Shown here: piece by piece, positions 25,432 to 37,596 of the stretch
Layout of the letters: each line of letters opens with the position of its first letter
How positions within the stretch are numbered: position 1 is the stretch's first letter
Source: Escherichia phage N2
Length of the DNA: 64,000 bases
Strand: one strand, 5' to 3'
Sequence record: ON645936.1
Program-made: the position numbers and the translations under genes
Notes under the pieces: generated by a model
What the model was told of the DNA's origin: nothing
Databases searched by the model: none
What the model saw: only the letters and a program-made list of their open reading frames with translations

Positions 25432-25614
25432 TTAAACTCTCGTATTATGATCGATAATTTCATCAAGAAACATATCTAAAGCTTCTAAAGCATTATCAAC
25501 TTTAGCTTCAAATTCTTCAATACTTGATAAGGCAAAGTTAATGCGTTCCTCATCTGCTTTGCGAATTAAAGCTACCAATTCTTTAATTTTATCTGCTTGT
25601 TCGATACTAATCAT
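25432..25614 (-). CDS. hypothetical protein
   Basis: ORF 25432-25650; probable start MISIEQ at 25614. Confidence 0.35.
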   Translation of the reverse strand: MISIEQADKIKELVALIRKADEERINFALSSIEEFEAKVDNALEALDMFLDEIIDHNTRV

Positions 25615-25802
25615 TATTCCACCACATATGAAAGAGAGAACATTGCACACGCCATATGAGTTGCAGCTTCATCACACATATCATAACGTTTCTTAAGAAG
25701 TTCTACAAGTTCTTCACTAGTAACTTCATCCATGTCGACGAAAAAATCACCATTAATGATAACGTAGATATTTCCTTCTTGATTAAGTGCTTCAATTTTC
25801 AT
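25614..25802 (-). CDS. hypothetical protein
   Basis: ORF 25614-25847; GAGGAG Shine-Dalgarno precedes ATG at 25802; longer ORF would overlap the promoter. Confidence 0.4.
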
Positions 25803-25829
25803 GATGTTCTCCTCTTTATCCGATAGTTG

Positions 25830-25860
25830 TATAGTACCACGGCTCAAACGAAAAGTAAAC
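25830..25860 (-). promoter_or_regulatory. T4-type early promoter
   Basis: GTTTAC-N18-TACTATA on minus strand. Confidence 0.5.
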
Positions 25861-25875
25861 CGGTAAAATGAAAAA

Positions 25876-25893
25876 AGTCTCCCGAAGGAGACT
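25876..25893 (-). terminator. rho-independent terminator (GUCUCC-UUCG-GGAGAC + U-tract)
   Basis: perfect stem, UUCG loop, TTTTTT downstream on minus strand. Confidence 0.55.
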
Positions 25894-25897
25894 AATG

Positions 25898-26284
25898 TTA
25901 TTCGAGGGAAAGAAGATATTTACTCTGGTAAAACATTCCAGTAATATCATCTATCGTGCTTTGGATGGCTGGAGGCATTTCTTTATAAATGCTGTTAGAT
26001 TGGTCTAGTATGCGATCAATCATTTTAATTGTGTCGGTAGGAAGTTTACTGGCATCTGGAATTGAAGGCGTGTATTTTCTACCAGAATACCCCAAATACT
26101 GCTCACCAAATTTATCAATCAAATCTGGCAACTCAGAGAAAATAAAATCGTATGCTTTGTGTCTAGCATAACTTTTAGTTTCAAAATGTGCAGAATGAAA
26201 ATAAGCTTGTGCAGCCATTAATAAACCTAAGTATTCATCTGCCTTTGAAGGTTTTCCACTTTGTGAAAAGTCGCTGAATTTCAT
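25898..26284 (-). CDS. hypothetical protein (rI.-1 position)
   Basis: 128-aa ORF immediately downstream of rI. Confidence 0.5.
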
Positions 26285-26574
26285 TCAGTCTCCAATTTAA
26301 TGTTCATAATTCTAGCGTATGATTGTGCCATCTCCGCGCCTCGCTCTATACATTCAAAATCGGAAGAGCACGGGTCATTTTTATAAGTCGTTCGCATAAA
26401 ACTATAGAACTGTTCAGATGATTCTACGCTTTTATTTTCAAAAAGCATATAAACATGTCTAATACCAGATTCCATAAATTTATCAAAATGAGGATCGACA
26501 TTTGCTTCAATTGGTGGAGATAAAGCAAACGCTAATCCTAGCATGGCAAATAGTGCCGTTGCTTTTAAGGCCAT
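26281..26574 (-). CDS. rI: lysis-inhibition regulator RI (secreted/periplasmic)
   Basis: 97 aa; signal peptide MALKATALFAMLGLAFALSPPIEA; recognised as T4 RI. Confidence 0.85.
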   Translation of the reverse strand: MALKATALFAMLGLAFALSPPIEANVDPHFDKFMESGIRHVYMLFENKSVESSEQFYSFMRTTYKNDPCSSDFECIERGAEMAQSYARIMNIKLETE

Positions 26575-26586
26575 AAAGGCCTCCTA

Positions 26587-26799
26587 TCATTTTTGTCCTG
26601 TATTTACTTTATGCCGGTGCACGGCCTTAACTTTATCAAGGTATTTTTCAAAATTTCGCAATCTAGTATAGTCTGCCGGAGATTGGTTGAGTGATACTTC
26701 TCGACGCAAAGCTGAAATGATATTTCCAACTTCCCTACGAATTTCATCTAATTGAAGAACAGTAAGATTGCGAAGTTGCTTTTCAGTTAATTGTAGCAT
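26587..26799 (-). CDS. hypothetical protein (rI.1 position)
   Basis: 70-aa ORF. Confidence 0.45.
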
Positions 26800-26841
26800 A
26801 TATACCCCTTTAGTTAGATAAACCTATTTATAACTTTTACA

Positions 26842-27423
26842 CTAACCGAGCTTTTTAGTTAATTCATTCCAGTGTTTTCTACACAAAGAAACATAAATTT
26901 CATCACCAATACAGATTTGATTACCTTCTTTAACTGGTGTTCCATCTTCCATTAATCGAGCTGTCATAATAGCTTTTTTACCACAATGACAAACTGCTTT
27001 TAGTTCAATAAGTTTATCTGCAATCGCCAAAAGTTCTTTAGAACCTTCAAATAATTTTCCAGCGAAATCAGTCCTTAGACCATAAGCCATAACAGGAACA
27101 TTATATGTATCAACAATTCGGCTTAATTGATGCACCTGTTCAGTTTTTAAAAACTGGGCTTCATCTACAAATACACAATGAATATCTTTTTGTGCTTCAG
27201 CCCATTTATAGAACTCAAAAATATCCATATCATCCGTAATAATATTCGCTTCCTGTTTAATTCCAATGCGAGAAACGACTTCACAGACAGAATCGCGAGT
27301 ATCAATAGCAGGCTTAAGAACTAATACACCCATTCCGCGTTCTTTATAATTATGCGCAGCAGTCAAAAGAGAAGCAGATTTTCCAGCATTCATTGCTGCA
27401 TACGTAAAAATTAAACTCGCCAT
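26842..27423 (-). CDS. tk: thymidine kinase
   Basis: 193 aa; P-loop AAMNAGKS and C-terminal Cys zinc site; matches T4 Tk. Confidence 0.9.
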   Translation of the reverse strand: MASLIFTYAAMNAGKSASLLTAAHNYKERGMGVLVLKPAIDTRDSVCEVVSRIGIKQEANIITDDMDIFEFYKWAEAQKDIHCVFVDEAQFLKTEQVHQLSRIVDTYNVPVMAYGLRTDFAGKLFEGSKELLAIADKLIELKAVCHCGKKAIMTARLMEDGTPVKEGNQICIGDEIYVSLCRKHWNELTKKLG

Positions 27424-27432
27424 ATCACCTTC

Positions 27433-27639
27433 TTAAAGCGTATTCACATAAGCTATTAATTCATTTTCTTTCTTATCAAACCGATCAGCAAATTCTTCCT
27501 GTTGTTCGGGAGATAGCGGGCCGTATTCATCATAAAAGGTGTTTGCTTCTGTATGCTCATCTAGAAGTTCATGGATAAGCTCAAACAATTTATCTTTTTG
27601 TTCTTTACTCAGACTCATAACCATTGCACCTTTAAGCAA
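27433..27639 (-). CDS. hypothetical protein
   Basis: 68-aa acidic ORF. Confidence 0.4.
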   Translation of the reverse strand: MLKGAMVMSLSKEQKDKLFELIHELLDEHTEANTFYDEYGPLSPEQQEEFADRFDKKENELIAYVNTL

Positions 27640-27827
27640 TATTCTTCTACATGCTGTTTACGTTTATTTTTATCTATAAAAGTATATTCAACATATTCAC
27701 CGATATACCATTTATCAGTGTTGTGTTGACTTTTTATAGGACATTTGGTTACTCGAGTTTCGGTCCAGCGTCGAATAATTTCCGCTTTGTTTTTAGGGTC
27801 AAACGGATGCGGGTAATGTGCTTTCAT
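27615..27827 (-). CDS. hypothetical protein
   Basis: 70-aa ORF. Confidence 0.4.
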   Translation of the reverse strand: MKAHYPHPFDPKNKAEIIRRWTETRVTKCPIKSQHNTDKWYIGEYVEYTFIDKNKRKQHVEEYCLKVQWL

Positions 27828-28278
27828 AATCCACCACTATTAAATCAATATCAGGAGTAAACATGTCGATTAATTTAGAAACCTTATCCCAATCGCCGCC
27901 AGCAATACCACAACCTATGCGTGGAATATAAATTACTGGTTTAAACAAAAGGGTCTCTGCCTGTAGATTTAATTCTATCATGCAGTTTACTAAAGCACCA
28001 TAATCAAGATTAGGACCTGGTTCGTATTGCGTATACAGGTTATAGCATATACCAAATCCTGTAGGATTATGTTTAAAAACAATAGACATATCGCCTAATT
28101 TATCACGAGAACCGTACTCAGTAGTGGTTTTATCTATTTCTAAAATTTTAGGATAGGCCCTTGCTAATTGACCTGCTACACCTGAACCCATAGTATGAAA
28201 ACAATTGCACCCGTGCGCAATAATATTACCTTGAAGAAATAGGGCGACAATATCGCCCTTGATATATTTTACAATCAT
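27799..28278 (-). CDS. macro-domain protein (ADP-ribose binding / hydrolase fold)
   Basis: 159 aa; GDIVAL, NIIAHGCNC, MGSGVAGQL and IPRIGCGIAGGDW match macro-domain signature regions. Confidence 0.65.
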   Translation of the reverse strand: MIVKYIKGDIVALFLQGNIIAHGCNCFHTMGSGVAGQLARAYPKILEIDKTTTEYGSRDKLGDMSIVFKHNPTGFGICYNLYTQYEPGPNLDYGALVNCMIELNLQAETLLFKPVIYIPRIGCGIAGGDWDKVSKLIDMFTPDIDLIVVDYESTLPASV

Positions 28279-28616
28279 CTAGTACTCAATCCTCGATTAT
28301 AAGAATCTACCAAACGGTCAACCATTGAATGACAAGCGGCTTTATCTTTCTCCTCCGCAACTGAACATTCTAAGGTATTCCACTTTTTAGCATATCGTTT
28401 TAATAAAGTATCATTTTTGTATCTGCTTGATTTATCTCTTTCTCCGTCTTTATATGCATATATTAATTTCTGCGCAAATTCAGCTTGGCATGCTTTATTT
28501 TTCCCACAATAATCCGCGGCAGTACGGTTTACATACTCTCTAATTTCAGTGTATGATGTATTTGCTAACACAGAAAATGAAATTAATCCTACACATAAAA
28601 CCAAAATTTTAGTCAT
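28275..28616 (-). CDS. secreted hypothetical protein (vs position)
   Basis: 113 aa with N-terminal signal peptide and several Cys. Confidence 0.45.
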   Translation of the reverse strand: MTKILVLCVGLISFSVLANTSYTEIREYVNRTAADYCGKNKACQAEFAQKLIYAYKDGERDKSSRYKNDTLLKRYAKKWNTLECSVAEEKDKAACHSMVDRLVDSYNRGLSTR

Positions 28617-29154
28617 TTACTATTTCCAACAGTTTATTATTTTTAAGGTAGTTAGCCTTTTCTAGGACTTCAGAAGCATATTTAGAACCTGCTTTAACAT
28701 TCCATCCCGAATTATAAGAGGATATTGCCTTTCTTATATCGCCCTTATGTATATTTAACCAATAAGAAAGTTCAATGTACGCCCAGGAAGCTGAATTGGA
28801 CCGTTTATTCAACATTCTTTTTATTTCGGCATCGGTCATATTATAACCAAGTTCCTTAACTCTTGCTCGCATAGTTGGCAAATAATTTTGGAACATTCCG
28901 TAGGCATGATGCTTTGGTTTAGATTTTAAATTAACTCCGGCAGAGCTTTCTTGCCACAAAATAGCAGCCATTATATGACCCAATCCGCTCTTGTGGATGT
29001 TTTTGTGTGTTTTATATTTTCCATCCTTAGAAAATTGTTCCCCGAATTGATATGCGTAGCGCATGTTATCGAGTTGGACATTACTGAAAGTATGCTCGGA
29101 GCTATGTGCCATCATTGAAATGGCCAATAGACCAGCGAGTAGTGCTTTTCTCAT
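28609..29154 (-). CDS. secreted lytic-transglycosylase-like protein
   Basis: 181 aa; signal peptide; WQESSAG...AYGMFQ resembles the SLT catalytic ES...GLMQ motif. Confidence 0.5.
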   Translation of the reverse strand: MRKALLAGLLAISMMAHSSEHTFSNVQLDNMRYAYQFGEQFSKDGKYKTHKNIHKSGLGHIMAAILWQESSAGVNLKSKPKHHAYGMFQNYLPTMRARVKELGYNMTDAEIKRMLNKRSNSASWAYIELSYWLNIHKGDIRKAISSYNSGWNVKAGSKYASEVLEKANYLKNNKLLEIVND

Positions 29155-29161
29155 GCTTACC

Positions 29162-29623
29162 TCATTGAGTTTTAATTACTGCTTTAGAAGCCTTTCCTGG
29201 TAAACGACGACTGTTGATAATTGCCATCCTACATTGAAGCGACGGGTCTTTGAACTTCGCATTAGGTTTACAAACTGTGAATCCAAGCCAAAGATTTCCA
29301 TCTGTGATTTCTAAACGTCCAGGGCGATATTCAACCCCATCAATAAAATCCTCGTCAATGTCAGGACGCGGAGGCATACTCAGGAATTCATTAACTTCTA
29401 AAACATGGTCTTTTATTTTGTGGAATAATTCAAAAACATATGTCTCATCAATCTCCCGTTGAATTGCACGATCAAGAAGATGCTGAGAATATTTTAGATG
29501 AAACGATGAGACCCCTGCTGCTTTTGATGCCTCACGAATCTCATTGTTAATTTGACGAAACTCCGACTCAAAGTGACGACGAAGCTTATTTCGACGGATA
29601 AAAACTTCTGTGTTGATAGTCAT
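29162..29623 (-). CDS. regB: endoribonuclease RegB
   Basis: 153 aa; MTINTEVFIRRNKLRRHFESEFRQINNEIREASKAAG recognised as T4 RegB. Confidence 0.95.
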   Translation of the reverse strand: MTINTEVFIRRNKLRRHFESEFRQINNEIREASKAAGVSSFHLKYSQHLLDRAIQREIDETYVFELFHKIKDHVLEVNEFLSMPPRPDIDEDFIDGVEYRPGRLEITDGNLWLGFTVCKPNAKFKDPSLQCRMAIINSRRLPGKASKAVIKTQ

Positions 29624-29650
29624 GTTATTCTCCTCTTAACTGATAGAAAA

Positions 29651-29680
29651 ATTATACCACAGTCAAGAGGAAAAGTAAAC
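29651..29680 (-). promoter_or_regulatory. T4-type early promoter (GTTTAC-N18-TATAAT) upstream of regB
   Basis: canonical hexamers with 18-nt spacer on minus strand. Confidence 0.55.
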
Positions 29681-29682
29681 AG

Positions 29683-30003
29683 TTATTCTTTAAATCTAAT
29701 CAATTTATTCATAGACTTTGAAACTTCTGCACGAACCTCATGTAGGTTTTTAAGCTGTTCAAGACGTTGCTCATAGTAAGCAATTTCATCTTCTTCGAGA
29801 CAGTCCTGTGAATCTTCTTTAAGATAACGTGCGTAGTCCTGGAAAGCTTTACGGACTACTTCTTGGAAGTCATCAAGACTTTGAATTTTCTTAGGAGCAA
29901 CAGATACACGACGAGGGGCAGTATAATACTCATAACCAAACCCTGCGCTTAATTGAGCCATTAATATTTTTCCTCTGGTTGGAACACTGCGCGACAAGCC
30001 CAC
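29683..30003 (-). CDS. hypothetical protein (vs.3 position)
   Basis: 106-aa ORF; real start may be internal (MAQLS). Confidence 0.4.
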
Positions 30004-30227
30004 ATACTGGCTTCTTTGAGTTTCGTTTTAGCAATAGTTAACTGATCGAGGCTTTCGGCGTAATTCTTCGCAAGTTCATCATCTTCACAGCTATCAAATG
30101 CTTCCCAAAATTCATCGTATAAAGCATCAAAGATAAGTCCTAAACGAACTTCAGCGTCTTTGATGGCATTCACTTTACCGATTTTCTTTTCAGTATGTGG
30201 CTTATAACCCTTAATATCTTCAATCAT
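29961..30227 (-). CDS. hypothetical protein at the vs.4 position (candidate Acb2-like cyclic-nucleotide sponge)
   Basis: 88-aa ORF, second gene upstream of regB; assignment is positional and by size only. Confidence 0.35.
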
Positions 30228-30441
30228 ATTTTACTTCCTCGCCAGTACCCAAATCATATTCAACTAAACGAATAGGTTCATGAATGCCATATCCCTGAAC
30301 AGAAATTTCTGTCGTAGGATAAATTCCATCAATATCACCCATATTCCATGCTTCATTAAATTGCTGTTCGCCTGAATTACTAAACCACTCGGCGAAAGCA
30401 TTTAGCACATCTTCAGAACCTTCAATAATTATCTTTGCCAT
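30220..30441 (-). CDS. hypothetical protein
   Basis: 73-aa ORF. Confidence 0.4.
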   Translation of the reverse strand: MAKIIIEGSEDVLNAFAEWFSNSGEQQFNEAWNMGDIDGIYPTTEISVQGYGIHEPIRLVEYDLGTGEEVKYD

Positions 30442-30803
30442 TACAGACTCTCAGTAAAGGTACGAGCGATAACGTCGCGCTGCTGTTCCGGAGTCAGAGA
30501 GTTAAAGCGAACTGCATAACCGGATACACGGATGGTCAGCTGCGGATATTTTTCCGGATGCTTAACTGCATCTTCCAGAGTTTCACGACGCAGAACGTTA
30601 ACGTTCAGGTGTTGACCACCTTCAATTTTAACTGTAGGCTGTTGCTCAATTTCAATTTCACGGGCATGCAAACCGTAGAAAATTTCTGGGTCTACAAAAG
30701 AGTCCTCTTTAAAGGTTTTAGAAACAATAATTCGTGCTTGAATACCATCTTCAAAATAAATAGTACCTTTATGTGTGCCTTCAAGAATTTGATATGCTTT
30801 CAT
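30441..30803 (-). CDS. autonomous glycyl-radical cofactor (GrcA/YfiD-like)
   Basis: 120 aa; C-terminal [13 protein letters not shown] glycyl-radical signature. Confidence 0.7.
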
Positions 30804-30809
30804 ATAACC

Positions 30810-31190
30810 TCAATTAGAAAATAAATTTATCCAAGATTGTTCTTTAATTAAAAATGGCTCAGAATCATATGCCATTAAACTTTGGGTGATTAGTCCTTTA
30901 AAAGGCCCATCAATAAATTCCATGGTAAAATATGGAATTTTATTCATTAACTTTGCATTAGGAGCAGTGCACAAAACTCTGCATCCTTTGAATACACCTT
31001 TTTGTAATTTGTATTGCTTAGGATAAAATTCGCTCAAGACGTTGTTATTTGCCAAAATTTCAAAATGATTCACCAATTTATTTTTAATAGTTTTTGGCGA
31101 AAAATAAAGATATTCGAAAAGTTGCGTATCTGTCATCATTGCATTCCAATTACGAAAAACTGCGGACGAGTAATACCACCAATGCAGCAT
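30810..31190 (-). CDS. hypothetical protein
   Basis: 126-aa ORF; start probably internal near 31139. Confidence 0.4.
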   Translation of the reverse strand: MLHWWYYSSAVFRNWNAMMTDTQLFEYLYFSPKTIKNKLVNHFEILANNNVLSEFYPKQYKLQKGVFKGCRVLCTAPNAKLMNKIPYFTMEFIDGPFKGLITQSLMAYDSEPFLIKEQSWINLFSN

Positions 31191-37280: not shown

Positions 37281-37332
37281 TAAGCCTTGCGGCAACCTTG
37301 TCGGGGTTCCACCTGCTAAGGCAAGTGTTTGT

Positions 37333-37423
37333 ACGAAACGCCGGGATTCGAACCCGGTTATTGAGCAGTTGACGCTACTCAATATTTTAAAAGGCCATAT
37401 CTCGACCATATCCGAACGTTCCG
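37333..37423 (-). ncRNA. tRNA-like structured small RNA (possible rnaC/rnaD-type stable RNA)
   Basis: canonical T-arm CCGGG-UUCGAAU-CCCGG with a 7-bp acceptor-like stem (CGGAACG/CGUUUCG) but ~91 nt and no clean anticodon arm. Confidence 0.3.
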
Positions 37424-37596
37424 TCAAAAACGCTACTCGGTTTACGGCAAAGATATTTCCTCGAATCGATAATTCGGTGCGCCGTTTCTGCTGTGATGTA
37501 AGGGGGCATTAACCGATCGTAAAGATTTGTTAACACAATTCCTTACCCAGGGAACATCAGTCCGACGACTTACCGGTAGCGACCCGGTTTCTCATT

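What the first reader, a model, noticed from the sequence alone, without database searches (positions are those of the whole stretch)
27799..28278. Macro-domain protein between tk and vs
The motifs GDIVAL, NIIAHGCNC, GSGVAGQL and IPRIGCGIAGGDW are a near-textbook macro domain (ADP-ribose binding/hydrolysis). In a phage this could reverse ADP-ribosylation by host defences such as DarT, or regulate the phage's own ARTs.
Basis: partly seen in the sequence, partly recalled or inferred. Interest (0 to 1): 0.5.

Follow-up and report, generated by a model that had tools for sequence, protein, structure and literature searches.

The report
T4-type phage macrodomain gene tk.4 (adfM)
This is the well-known macrodomain gene tk.4 of T4-like phages, whose T4 version was recently shown to protect the phage from the bacterial DarTG2 defence that ADP-ribosylates DNA, so the finding is correct but not new.

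Summary
The ORF at 27799-28278 (minus strand, 159 aa) is real, and all four quoted motifs are in it. It is a macro domain: Pfam PF01661 scores 33.1 bits against a cut-off of 22. The AlphaFold model (pLDDT 94) matches TARG1, Poa1p, BT1257 and DarG macrodomains.

The window is a Tequatrovirus. The ORF sits where T4 tk.4 sits, directly downstream of vs and upstream of tk.3, tk.2 and tk. It is a diverged allele: 57-58% amino-acid identity to T4 Tk.4, while flanking genes are 95-100% identical. This allele is common, at 90% identity or more in 312 phage records.

One refinement: the family does not have the catalytic lysine of DarG and TARG1. It has a near-invariant glutamine there (254 of 255 relatives). 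That matches Streptomyces SCO6735, a macrodomain shown to remove ADP-ribose from thymidine in DNA.

The most likely function is a thymidine-ADP-ribose DNA glycohydrolase that counters DarT2. This allele has not been tested experimentally. The gene is already known; interest is low to moderate.

The parts
27799..28278 (-). tk.4 / adfM allele: single-domain macrodomain protein of 159 aa, with the stop codon at 27799-27801
   Evidence: ORF. Pfam Macro. PHROG 335. AF2 model with pLDDT 94.2. Foldseek matches to TARG1, Poa1p, BT1257 and DarG. 58% identity to T4 Tk.4, E=1e-70.
28201..28215 (-). Codons 22-26, HGCNC. N25 aligns with DarG N22, PhiKZ AdfM N23 and SCO6735 N27. H22 matches the His in the aligned Poa1p motif HSCNC.
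   Evidence: Alignments: H22 in 247 of 255 relatives, N25 in 253, C26 in 250. Active-site roles of DarG N22 and PhiKZ N23 are from PMC13309987.
28171..28188 (-). Codons 31-36, GSGVAG: Gly-rich loop 1 of the macro fold
   Evidence: G33 is conserved in 255 of 255 and A35 in 253 of 255. It aligns with the GKG/GAG loop of DarG, TARG1 and SCO6735.
28027..28041 (-). Codons 80-84, NLYTQ. Q84 occupies the position of the catalytic Lys of TARG1 (K84), DarG (K80) and PhiKZ AdfM (K78). It matches Q85 of SCO6735 and the Gln of BT1257.
   Evidence: Profile alignment to TARG1 and BT1257. MAFFT alignment. Q84 in 254 of 255 and N80 in 253 of 255. SCO6735 Q85A/E is inactive (PMC9411070).
27889..27924 (-). Codons 119-130, PRIGCGIAGGDW: Gly-rich loop 2. 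A126 sits at the position of TARG1 D125.
   Evidence: SCO6735 has PRIGCGLAGGTW and BT1257 has PRIGCGLAGGKW.
28275..28616 (-). vs (valyl-tRNA synthetase modifier), upstream neighbour. Its TGA overlaps the tk.4 ATG (ATGA at 28275-28278), which suggests co-transcription and translational coupling.
   Evidence: PHROG 1256, E=1.1e-39. 95% aa identity to T4 Vs.
27615..27827 (-). tk.3, 70 aa, function unknown. Its start overlaps the last 29 nt of tk.4.
   Evidence: PHROG 2008. 71% aa identity to T4 Tk.3.
27433..27618 (-). tk.2, 61 aa from the ATG used in annotated relatives, function unknown
   Evidence: PHROG 653. 49% aa identity to T4 Tk.2.
27434..28210 (.). Diverged segment relative to T4 (38-88% nucleotide identity per 50 columns), covering tk.4 from about codon 23 through tk.2, with tk.1 missing. 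The flanks are 96-100% identical to T4.
   Evidence: Pairwise DNA alignment. Sliding-window identity and per-gene identities.
26842..27423 (-). tk, thymidine kinase; marks the conserved downstream flank
   Evidence: 99% aa identity to T4 Tk.

Best explanation
The ORF is the tk.4 (adfM) gene of a T4-like phage (genus Tequatrovirus). It encodes a stand-alone macrodomain of the ALC1/TARG1-like class. It is probably expressed as part of the regB-vs.1-vs-tk.4 gene run (inferred). The protein most likely binds the ADP-ribose that the host toxin DarT2 attaches to thymidine in single-stranded phage DNA, and hydrolyses the base-ribose bond. That would restore replicable DNA and neutralise DarTG2 defence. 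Chemically it should work like Streptomyces SCO6735 rather than like DarG. A near-invariant glutamine (Q84) replaces the catalytic lysine and would position the distal ribose and a water molecule, helped by N25 and the two glycine loops. What is shown here: the domain identity, the fold, the synteny with T4 tk.4 and the active-site residue pattern. What is shown in the literature: the genetic requirement of the T4 allele for DarTG2 resistance, and the thymidine-ADP-ribose hydrolase activity of the Gln-type relative SCO6735. What is inferred: that this 58%-identical allele has the same activity and target.
For: Domain and fold:
- Pfam Macro hit above the gathering cut-off.
- AF2 model with pLDDT 94.2 and pTM 0.89.
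- Top Foldseek matches are TARG1, Poa1p, BT1257 and DarG, all with probability 1.0 and TM 0.74-0.76.
- The best NCBIfam and PADLOC matches, for both this protein and T4 Tk.4, are to the macrodomain part of DarG.

Orthology with T4 tk.4:
- Same position directly downstream of vs and upstream of tk.3, tk.2 and tk.
- 58% identity over the full length, E=1e-70.
- Same PHROG 335.
- All 16 invariant family positions are kept in both alleles.

Function of the T4 allele: tk.4 was the single significant HIDEN-SEQ hit on a DarTG2 host, and the knock-out became sensitive (bioRxiv 10.1101/2025.11.20.689424).

Mechanism:
- Q84 aligns with SCO6735 Q85, TARG1 K84 and DarG K80, and is conserved in 254 of 255 relatives.
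- SCO6735 cleaves thymidine-linked ADP-ribose on DNA, protects against DarT, and is dead as Q85A/E (PMC9411070; PMC12879935).
Against: - No biochemistry exists for any Tk.4-family protein in the papers I found. The T4 preprint offers only genetics and a structural superposition.
- The tested phages T2, T4 and T6 all carry the other allele, so this allele is untested.
- The protein scores far below the DarG equivalog cut-off (27.8 against 250 bits).
- It is about as close to Poa1p, an ADP-ribose-1''-phosphate phosphatase, as to SCO6735.
- SCO6735 also blocks DarT by binding when catalytically dead, so protection need not be purely enzymatic.
Confidence: 0.72

Rival explanations
1. It is a small-molecule ADP-ribose derivative hydrolase: an ADP-ribose-1''-phosphate phosphatase like yeast Poa1p, or an O-acetyl-ADP-ribose deacetylase. 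This is what the database label 'phosphatase' implies. It would process NAD-derived metabolites during infection rather than repair DNA.
For: PHROG 335 and the T4 RefSeq record call it 'phosphatase' or 'A1pp phosphatase motif'. Poa1p is among the best PDB matches by sequence (E=1.5e-9) and by fold (6lfr, E=1.4e-9). The HxCNC motif, including the His that matches the one in the aligned Poa1p motif HSCNC, is shared (the H23A mutant entry 6lfs is listed).
Against: The only phenotype reported for the T4 gene is sensitivity to DarTG2. The Poa1p sequence match covers mainly the N-terminal half (residues 3-79). The NxYTQ and PRIGCGxAGGxW motifs match SCO6735 and BT1257 instead. From general knowledge, Appr-1''-p comes from Tpt1-type tRNA splicing, and no step of T4 infection is known to need it.
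Confidence: 0.1
2. It protects mainly by binding and blocking the DarT2 toxin, or by shielding ADP-ribosylated DNA, rather than by hydrolysis.
For: Catalytically dead SCO6735 Q85A, DarG K80A and TARG1 K84A all inhibit DarT in vitro, and SCO6735 is the strongest of the three (PMC9411070). The other T-even anti-DarT factor AdfA acts by binding the toxin (PMC11825919).
Against: The putative active-site residues (H22, N25, D49, N80, Y82, Q84) are invariant or nearly so across 255 relatives from very different phages and bacteria. That pattern fits a conserved chemistry, not a co-evolving protein-protein interface. The protein also lacks the C-terminal DarT-binding domain of DarG (159 aa, single domain).
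Confidence: 0.08
3. It removes ADP-ribose from proteins or RNA. The targets would be either marks made by the phage's own transferases (Alt, ModA, ModB) or marks made by other ADP-ribosylating defence toxins. The DarTG2 phenotype would then be only one facet, or specific to the T4 allele.
For: TARG1 and SCO6735 also act on glutamate-linked protein ADP-ribose, and reports differ on whether SCO6735 acts on phosphate-linked nucleic-acid ends. The two phage alleles differ at 42% of positions, including loop 2, so their specificities could differ.
Against: From general knowledge, T4 Alt, ModA and ModB are arginine-specific, and macrodomains do not cleave arginine-ADP-ribose. No phenotype other than DarTG2 was reported in the T4 screen.
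Confidence: 0.1

Closest known systems
T4 Tk.4 = AdfM (NP_049723; HIDEN-SEQ preprint 10.1101/2025.11.20.689424)
   Same: Same locus, directly downstream of vs and upstream of tk.3. Same length class (155 against 159 aa). Same PHROG. All family-invariant residues, including N25 and Q84, are shared. The first 66 nucleotides are almost identical.
   Different: Only 57-58% amino-acid identity, although the flanking genes are 95-100% identical. The window allele has the family-consensus loop 2 (GCGIAGGDW). T4 has GAGIGKGNW, with a Lys that is rare in the family (4 of 255). The C-terminal tail differs after a 13-nt indel. This allele is untested experimentally.
Streptomyces coelicolor SCO6735 (PDB 5e3b) and Bacteroides BT1257 (2fg1/2afc)
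   Same: ALC1/TARG1-like macrodomain with Gln instead of the catalytic Lys. Shares the H-x-C-N, N-x-x-x-Q and PRIGCGxAGGxW motifs. Stand-alone single domain. BT1257 is the best PDB sequence match. SCO6735 hydrolyses thymidine-ADP-ribose on DNA.
   Different: About 25-30% identity only. SCO6735 has a longer mobile loop after the Gln, with Lys89 and Lys94, which the phage protein lacks. D49, Y82 and C26 are specific to the phage-type subfamily. SCO6735 is a DNA-damage-induced chromosomal gene, not a phage gene.
DarG antitoxin macrodomain (PDB 5m3i, 5m31; NCBIfam NF048014)
   Same: Same fold class (TM 0.75-0.76). Conserved Asn (DarG N22 = N25). Presumed same substrate, which is the DarT2 product.
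   Different: Catalytic Lys80 is replaced by Gln. There is no C-terminal DarT-binding domain and no adjacent darT. The score is 27.8 bits against a 250-bit cut-off.
PhiKZ gp104 'AdfM' (Cell Rep 2026, PMC13309987)
   Same: A phage-encoded stand-alone macrodomain that counters DarTG2. It carries the same name.
   Different: Not an orthologue. BLASTP against the window protein gives only E=0.001 over 33 residues. PhiKZ gp104 is a true DarG-clade protein (E=9e-25 to Mtb DarG) with the catalytic Lys (K78).
Human TARG1/OARD1 (PDB 4j5r) and yeast Poa1p (6lfq)
   Same: Top structural matches. TARG1 also removes thymidine-linked ADP-ribose. Poa1p shares the HxCNC motif.
   Different: The TARG1 catalytic dyad K84/D125 corresponds to Q84/A126 here. 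Poa1p is an Appr-1''-p phosphatase, and its similarity is concentrated in the N-terminal half.

Membership tests
Macro domain (Pfam PF01661) | Profile HMM score above the curated gathering threshold | tested here: met
   33.1 bits against a cut-off of 22, E=5.8e-8, covering profile positions 2-117 of 118.
Macro domain (Pfam PF01661) | Three-layer alpha/beta/alpha macro fold | tested here: met
   AF2 model with pLDDT 94.2. Foldseek probability 1.0 and TM 0.74-0.76 to TARG1, Poa1p and DarG.
Macro domain (Pfam PF01661) | Two glycine-rich loops lining the ADP-ribose pyrophosphate site | tested here: met
   GSGVAG (31-36) and GCGIAGG (122-128) align with the loops of the solved macrodomains and are conserved in the family.
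Macro domain (Pfam PF01661) | Binds ADP-ribose | not testable with these tools
   Needs ITC, a thermal-shift assay or a co-crystal.
T4 Tk.4/AdfM orthologous group | Full-length homology and a conserved genomic position directly downstream of vs and upstream of tk.3 | tested here: met
   58% identity, E=1e-70. Gene order is regB-vs.1-vs-tk.4-tk.3-tk.2-tk in the window, T4, T6 and G50. PHROG 335, E=1.6e-71.
T4 Tk.4/AdfM orthologous group | Needed for phage growth on a DarTG2 host | not testable with these tools
   Shown only for the T4 allele. T2, T4 and T6 carry the T4-type allele.
SCO6735-type (Gln-type) ALC1/TARG1-like macrodomains | Glutamine at the position of TARG1 K84 and DarG K80 | tested here: met
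   Q84 aligns with SCO6735 Q85 and the BT1257 Gln. Conserved in 254 of 255 relatives.
SCO6735-type (Gln-type) ALC1/TARG1-like macrodomains | Hydrolyses thymidine-linked ADP-ribose on ssDNA | not testable with these tools
   Shown for SCO6735 (PMC9411070). Needs an in vitro assay for this protein.
DarG antitoxin (NCBIfam NF048014 equivalog) | Score above the equivalog cut-off | tested here: not met
   27.8 bits against 250. Only the N-terminal 142 of 338 profile positions match. The PADLOC DarG match is likewise partial.
DarG antitoxin (NCBIfam NF048014 equivalog) | Catalytic Lys80 | tested here: not met
   Gln at that column.
DarG antitoxin (NCBIfam NF048014 equivalog) | C-terminal DarT-binding domain and an adjacent darT gene | tested here: not met
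   159-aa single-domain protein. Its neighbours are vs and tk.3.
Poa1p-type ADP-ribose-1''-phosphate phosphatase | Sequence and fold similarity including the mutated active-site His (Poa1p H23) | tested here: inconclusive
   E=1.5e-9, mainly over residues 3-79. H22 matches the His in the aligned Poa1p motif HSCNC. Foldseek E=1.4e-9. The central and C-terminal motifs fit SCO6735/BT1257 better. Activity was not testable.
PhiKZ-type AdfM (DarG-clade phage macrodomain) | Close sequence relationship to DarG macrodomains, with the catalytic Lys | tested here: not met
   PhiKZ gp104 matches Mtb DarG at E=9.4e-25. It matches the window protein only at E=0.001 over 33 aa. It has Lys where the window protein has Gln.

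The most novel reading that the evidence does not exclude
The two deeply diverged tk.4 alleles are embedded in almost identical flanks, together with the variable small genes tk.3, tk.2 and tk.1. They could be an arms-race cassette exchanged among T-even phages. In that case the window-type allele would have a different target range from T4 AdfM, for example other DarT2 variants, other nucleic-acid ADP-ribosyltransferases, or protein or RNA substrates. The co-varying small ORFs might then be partner or additional anti-defence factors.
Probability: 0.15. Interest if true: 0.5.

Novelty: already known. Interest (0 to 1): 0.27.

Why it matters
The result confirms that a reader working from sequence alone can correctly identify a phage counter-defence enzyme. 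For biology the gain is small. The macro (A1pp) domain of tk.4 has been noted since 2006 (PMC1524935), and the anti-DarTG2 role of the T4 gene was reported in 2025.

Three points may help people working on DarTG:
- The T-even 'AdfM' family is of the glutamine type, like SCO6735. It is not a lysine-type DarG mimic like PhiKZ 'AdfM', so the two proteins that share the name are not orthologues and probably use different chemistry.
- T-even phages carry at least two very different alleles of the gene. The allele in this window is the more common one in sequenced phages, yet it is the untested one.
- The vs-tk interval is a variable cassette, and its small ORFs are plausible candidates for further anti-defence functions.

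Tried and rejected
- DarG membership: I looked for evidence that the protein is a bona fide DarG-type antitoxin. This was rejected. It scores below the cut-off, has Gln instead of Lys, has no C-terminal domain and has no darT neighbour.
- Orthology with PhiKZ AdfM: rejected.
- Plasmid search: tblastn against plasmids was meant to retrieve DarG sequences. It found only stand-alone macro-domain proteins and no DarG. I obtained the DarG and SCO6735 sequences instead from PDB alignments, using PhiKZ gp104 and a Streptomyces plasmid homologue as queries.
- Misleading pairwise alignment: single-sequence phmmer against BT1257 misplaced the NxxxQ motif. The profile alignment and MAFFT agree on the corrected register. 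hmmalign also misplaced the distant PhiKZ sequence by a few columns, so I rely on MAFFT for that one.
- RNA elements: I checked both strands of 25500-31000 for RNA families and found nothing meaningful. A hairpin inside the 5' end of tk.4 is not significant (z=-1.56).
- Promoters: the promoter scan gave no more sites than shuffled sequence (14 against 13.4). Only the site upstream of regB is positionally sensible.
- Bacterial context: one bacterial family member (Pelagimonas) is a stand-alone chromosomal gene with no DarT nearby. A single example says little about where the phage gene came from.

Full report
**1. The observation**

The ORF listing returns an ATG-started ORF at exactly 27799..28278 on the minus strand (159 aa). 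The stop codon TGA lies at 27799-27801.

The ATG at 28276-28278 overlaps the TGA of the upstream gene in an ATGA arrangement (read). The last 29 nt overlap the start of the next ORF (27615-27827).

One correction applies. The gene touches vs, but two small genes (tk.3 and tk.2) separate it from tk.

**2. Domain and fold**

- Pfam Macro (PF01661) matches residues 22-136 over almost the whole profile. The score is 33.1 bits against a curated cut-off of 22 (E=5.8e-8).
- PHROG 335, labelled 'phosphatase', matches at E=1.6e-71.
- An AlphaFold2 model built on a 52-sequence family alignment is confident, with mean pLDDT 94.2 and pTM 0.89. Only the last four residues are disordered.
- Foldseek against the PDB puts TARG1, Poa1p, BT1257 and the DarG macrodomains of Thermus aquaticus and M. 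tuberculosis on top. All have probability 1.0 and TM 0.74-0.76. These belong to the ALC1/TARG1-like class of macrodomains.
- By sequence, the best solved relatives are BT1257 (E=1.6e-10), Poa1p, SCO6735, DarG and TARG1. With a family profile they reach 1.7e-19 to 2.5e-10.
- In both NCBIfam and PADLOC the best match is the macrodomain part of DarG. It falls far below the equivalog cut-off (27.8 against 250 bits).

**3. Genomic identity**

The window is a T4-like phage of the genus Tequatrovirus. The gene order on the minus strand is regB, vs.1, vs, this ORF, tk.3, tk.2, tk, rI.1, rI. This is the order in T4, T6 and phage G50, where the gene is tk.4. Those records annotate it as 'phosphatase; contains A1pp phosphatase motif' or 'macro domain protein'.

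The ORF is 58% identical to T4 Tk.4 over the full length (E=1e-70). That divergence is local, as the comparison with T4 shows:

| Gene | aa identity to T4 |
|---|---|
| regB | 99% |
| vs.1 | 99% |
| vs | 95% |
| tk.4 | 57% |
| tk.3 | 71% |
| tk.2 | 49% |
| tk.1 | absent from the window |
| tk | 99% |
| rI.1 | 100% |

T6 has two extra ORFs in the same interval. So the vs-tk interval is a variable cassette.

Both alleles are common. The window type occurs at 90% identity or more in 312 phage records, 112 of them at 99% or more. The T4 type occurs at 90% or more in 224 records. T2, T4 and T6 all carry the T4 type.

The wider family is large:
- About 2,750 of 50,697 phage records carry a match.
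- There are 6,146 50%-identity cluster representatives at E<=1e-3 and 1,579 at E<=1e-10.
- It includes bacterial stand-alone genes such as one in Pelagimonas with no DarT neighbour.

**4. What is known about the gene**

The A1pp/macro domain of tk.4 orthologues was noted in 2006 (PMC1524935).

A November 2025 preprint (HIDEN-SEQ, 10.1101/2025.11.20.689424) found tk.4 as the single significant transposon hit when a T4 mutant library was grown on a DarTG2 host. A clean deletion sensitised T4 to DarTG2. The authors renamed the gene adfM and proposed that it removes ADP-ribose from DNA. That proposal rests on a structural superposition with M. tuberculosis DarG, and no biochemistry was reported.

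This filled a gap left by earlier work, which showed that T2 and T4 stay resistant to DarTG2 without adfA and adfN (PMC11825919).

Independently, a 2026 paper named PhiKZ gp104 'AdfM'. It showed hydrolysis of thymidine-ADP-ribose oligonucleotides, with N23 and K78 as DarG-like active-site residues (PMC13309987).

**5. Active site**

I extracted the sequences of DarG (Mtb and Taq), SCO6735, BT1257 and TARG1 from the PDB alignments. I then aligned them with the window protein, T4 Tk.4, PhiKZ gp104 and 51 family members. The correspondences are:

| Window residue | Aligned residue in relatives |
|---|---|
| N25 | DarG N22, PhiKZ N23, SCO6735 N27 |
| Q84 | SCO6735 Q85 and the BT1257 Gln; TARG1 K84, DarG K80, PhiKZ K78 |
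| A126 | TARG1 D125 |

In 255 relatives the following are almost invariant:

| Residue | Conserved in (of 255) |
|---|---|
| Q84 | 254 |
| Y82 | 254 |
| N25 | 253 |
| D49 | 253 |
| N80 | 253 |
| H22 | 247 |

So the Tk.4 family is not a lysine-type enzyme like DarG. Its closest mechanistic precedent is SCO6735. In SCO6735, Q85A and Q85E abolish activity. SCO6735 cleaves thymidine-linked ADP-ribose on ssDNA and protects cells from DarT. A water-mediated mechanism positioned by the Gln has been proposed for it (PMC9411070; PMC12879935).

PhiKZ gp104, by contrast, is a true DarG-clade protein (E=9e-25 to Mtb DarG). It is barely related to the window protein (E=0.001 over 33 residues). The two 'AdfM' proteins are therefore analogues within one superfamily, not orthologues.

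The window allele carries the family-consensus loop 2 (GCGIAGGDW). T4 has GAGIGKGNW, with a Lys found in only 4 of 255 relatives. On sequence grounds the window allele is at least as likely to be active as the tested T4 allele.

**6. Most likely mechanism**

The gene lies in a tight run of same-strand genes. These show start/stop overlaps, and a promoter-like site with an extended -10 sits just upstream of regB (29651-29679). That site is only a consensus match, so co-transcription is an inference.

The protein would bind the ADP-ribose placed by DarT2 on thymidine in single-stranded phage DNA and hydrolyse the N-glycosidic bond. This would restore a replicable template.

- Shown here: the domain, the fold, the orthology and the residue pattern.
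- Shown in the literature: the T4 genetics and the SCO6735 biochemistry.
- Inferred: that this allele has the same activity.

I put this at about 0.7.

Three rivals remain:
- A metabolite hydrolase of the Poa1p type, which is the source of the 'phosphatase' label.
- Non-catalytic blocking of DarT2, as catalytically dead SCO6735 can do.
- Action on protein or RNA ADP-ribose.

From general knowledge those enzymes modify arginine, which macrodomains do not reverse.

**7. Verdict**

The finding is correct in both observation and interpretation, but it describes a gene that is already annotated and, for the T4 allele, functionally assigned. Novelty is 'already known'.

The residual interest has three parts:
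- The glutamine-type active site.
- The non-orthology of the two proteins named AdfM.
- A common, untested allele that sits inside a variable cassette.

Interest is about 0.27.

Noticed in passing
window 27434-28210, compared with L002 (T4) and L007 (T6): The vs-tk interval is a variable cassette. Against T4, tk.4, tk.3 and tk.2 are 57%, 71% and 49% identical, while flanking genes are 95-100%. tk.1 is missing from the window, and T6 has two extra small ORFs there. tk.3 and tk.2 have no known function (PHROG 2008 and 653).
   Followed up: partly
L002:4923-5390 (T4 Tk.4), loop 2: The experimentally tested T4 and T6 allele has GAGIGKGNW instead of the consensus GCGIAGGDW. The Lys at the G127 position occurs in only 4 of 255 relatives. 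Whether this changes activity or specificity is unknown.
   Followed up: no
L003:22518-23006 (PhiKZ gp104) against window 27799-28278: Two different papers gave the name AdfM to proteins that are not orthologues. PhiKZ gp104 is a DarG-clade, Lys-type macrodomain. T4 Tk.4 is a Gln-type, SCO6735-like macrodomain.
   Followed up: yes
window 37331-37424 (-): ARAGORN calls a 94-nt tRNA-Lys (anticodon UUU) just downstream of tRNA-Arg in the phage tRNA cluster. From general knowledge it is long for a tRNA and is not among the eight classical T4 tRNAs. It may be an extra tRNA, a tRNA-like stable RNA or a false call.
   Followed up: no
window 28241-28259: A perfect 8-bp GC-rich hairpin (AGGGCGAT ATT GTCGCCCT) followed by a T-rich stretch lies inside codons 7-13 of tk.4, in the part that is identical to T4. 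It was flagged as terminator-like on both strands. Folding of the surrounding 76 nt is not significantly more stable than shuffles (z=-1.56).
   Followed up: yes
window 28275-28616 (-), vs: In the same HIDEN-SEQ preprint, the neighbouring gene vs was the most strongly depleted T4 gene in minimal medium compared with LB. The window copy lacks two codons relative to T4 Vs, 113 against 115 aa.
   Followed up: no
window 28609-29154 (-), vs.1: Vs.1 (181 aa) starts with a hydrophobic, signal-like N-terminus and has weak matches to lytic tail-protein PHROGs. This fits the weak SLT transglycosylase match reported in 2006. Its function is still unassigned.
   Followed up: no
window 29651-29679 (-): A promoter-like site (TTTACT, 17-nt spacer, TG-TATAAT) lies about 30 nt upstream of the regB start codon. 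It could drive the regB-vs.1-vs-tk.4 run. Overall the region has no more promoter-like sites than shuffled sequence.
   Followed up: no
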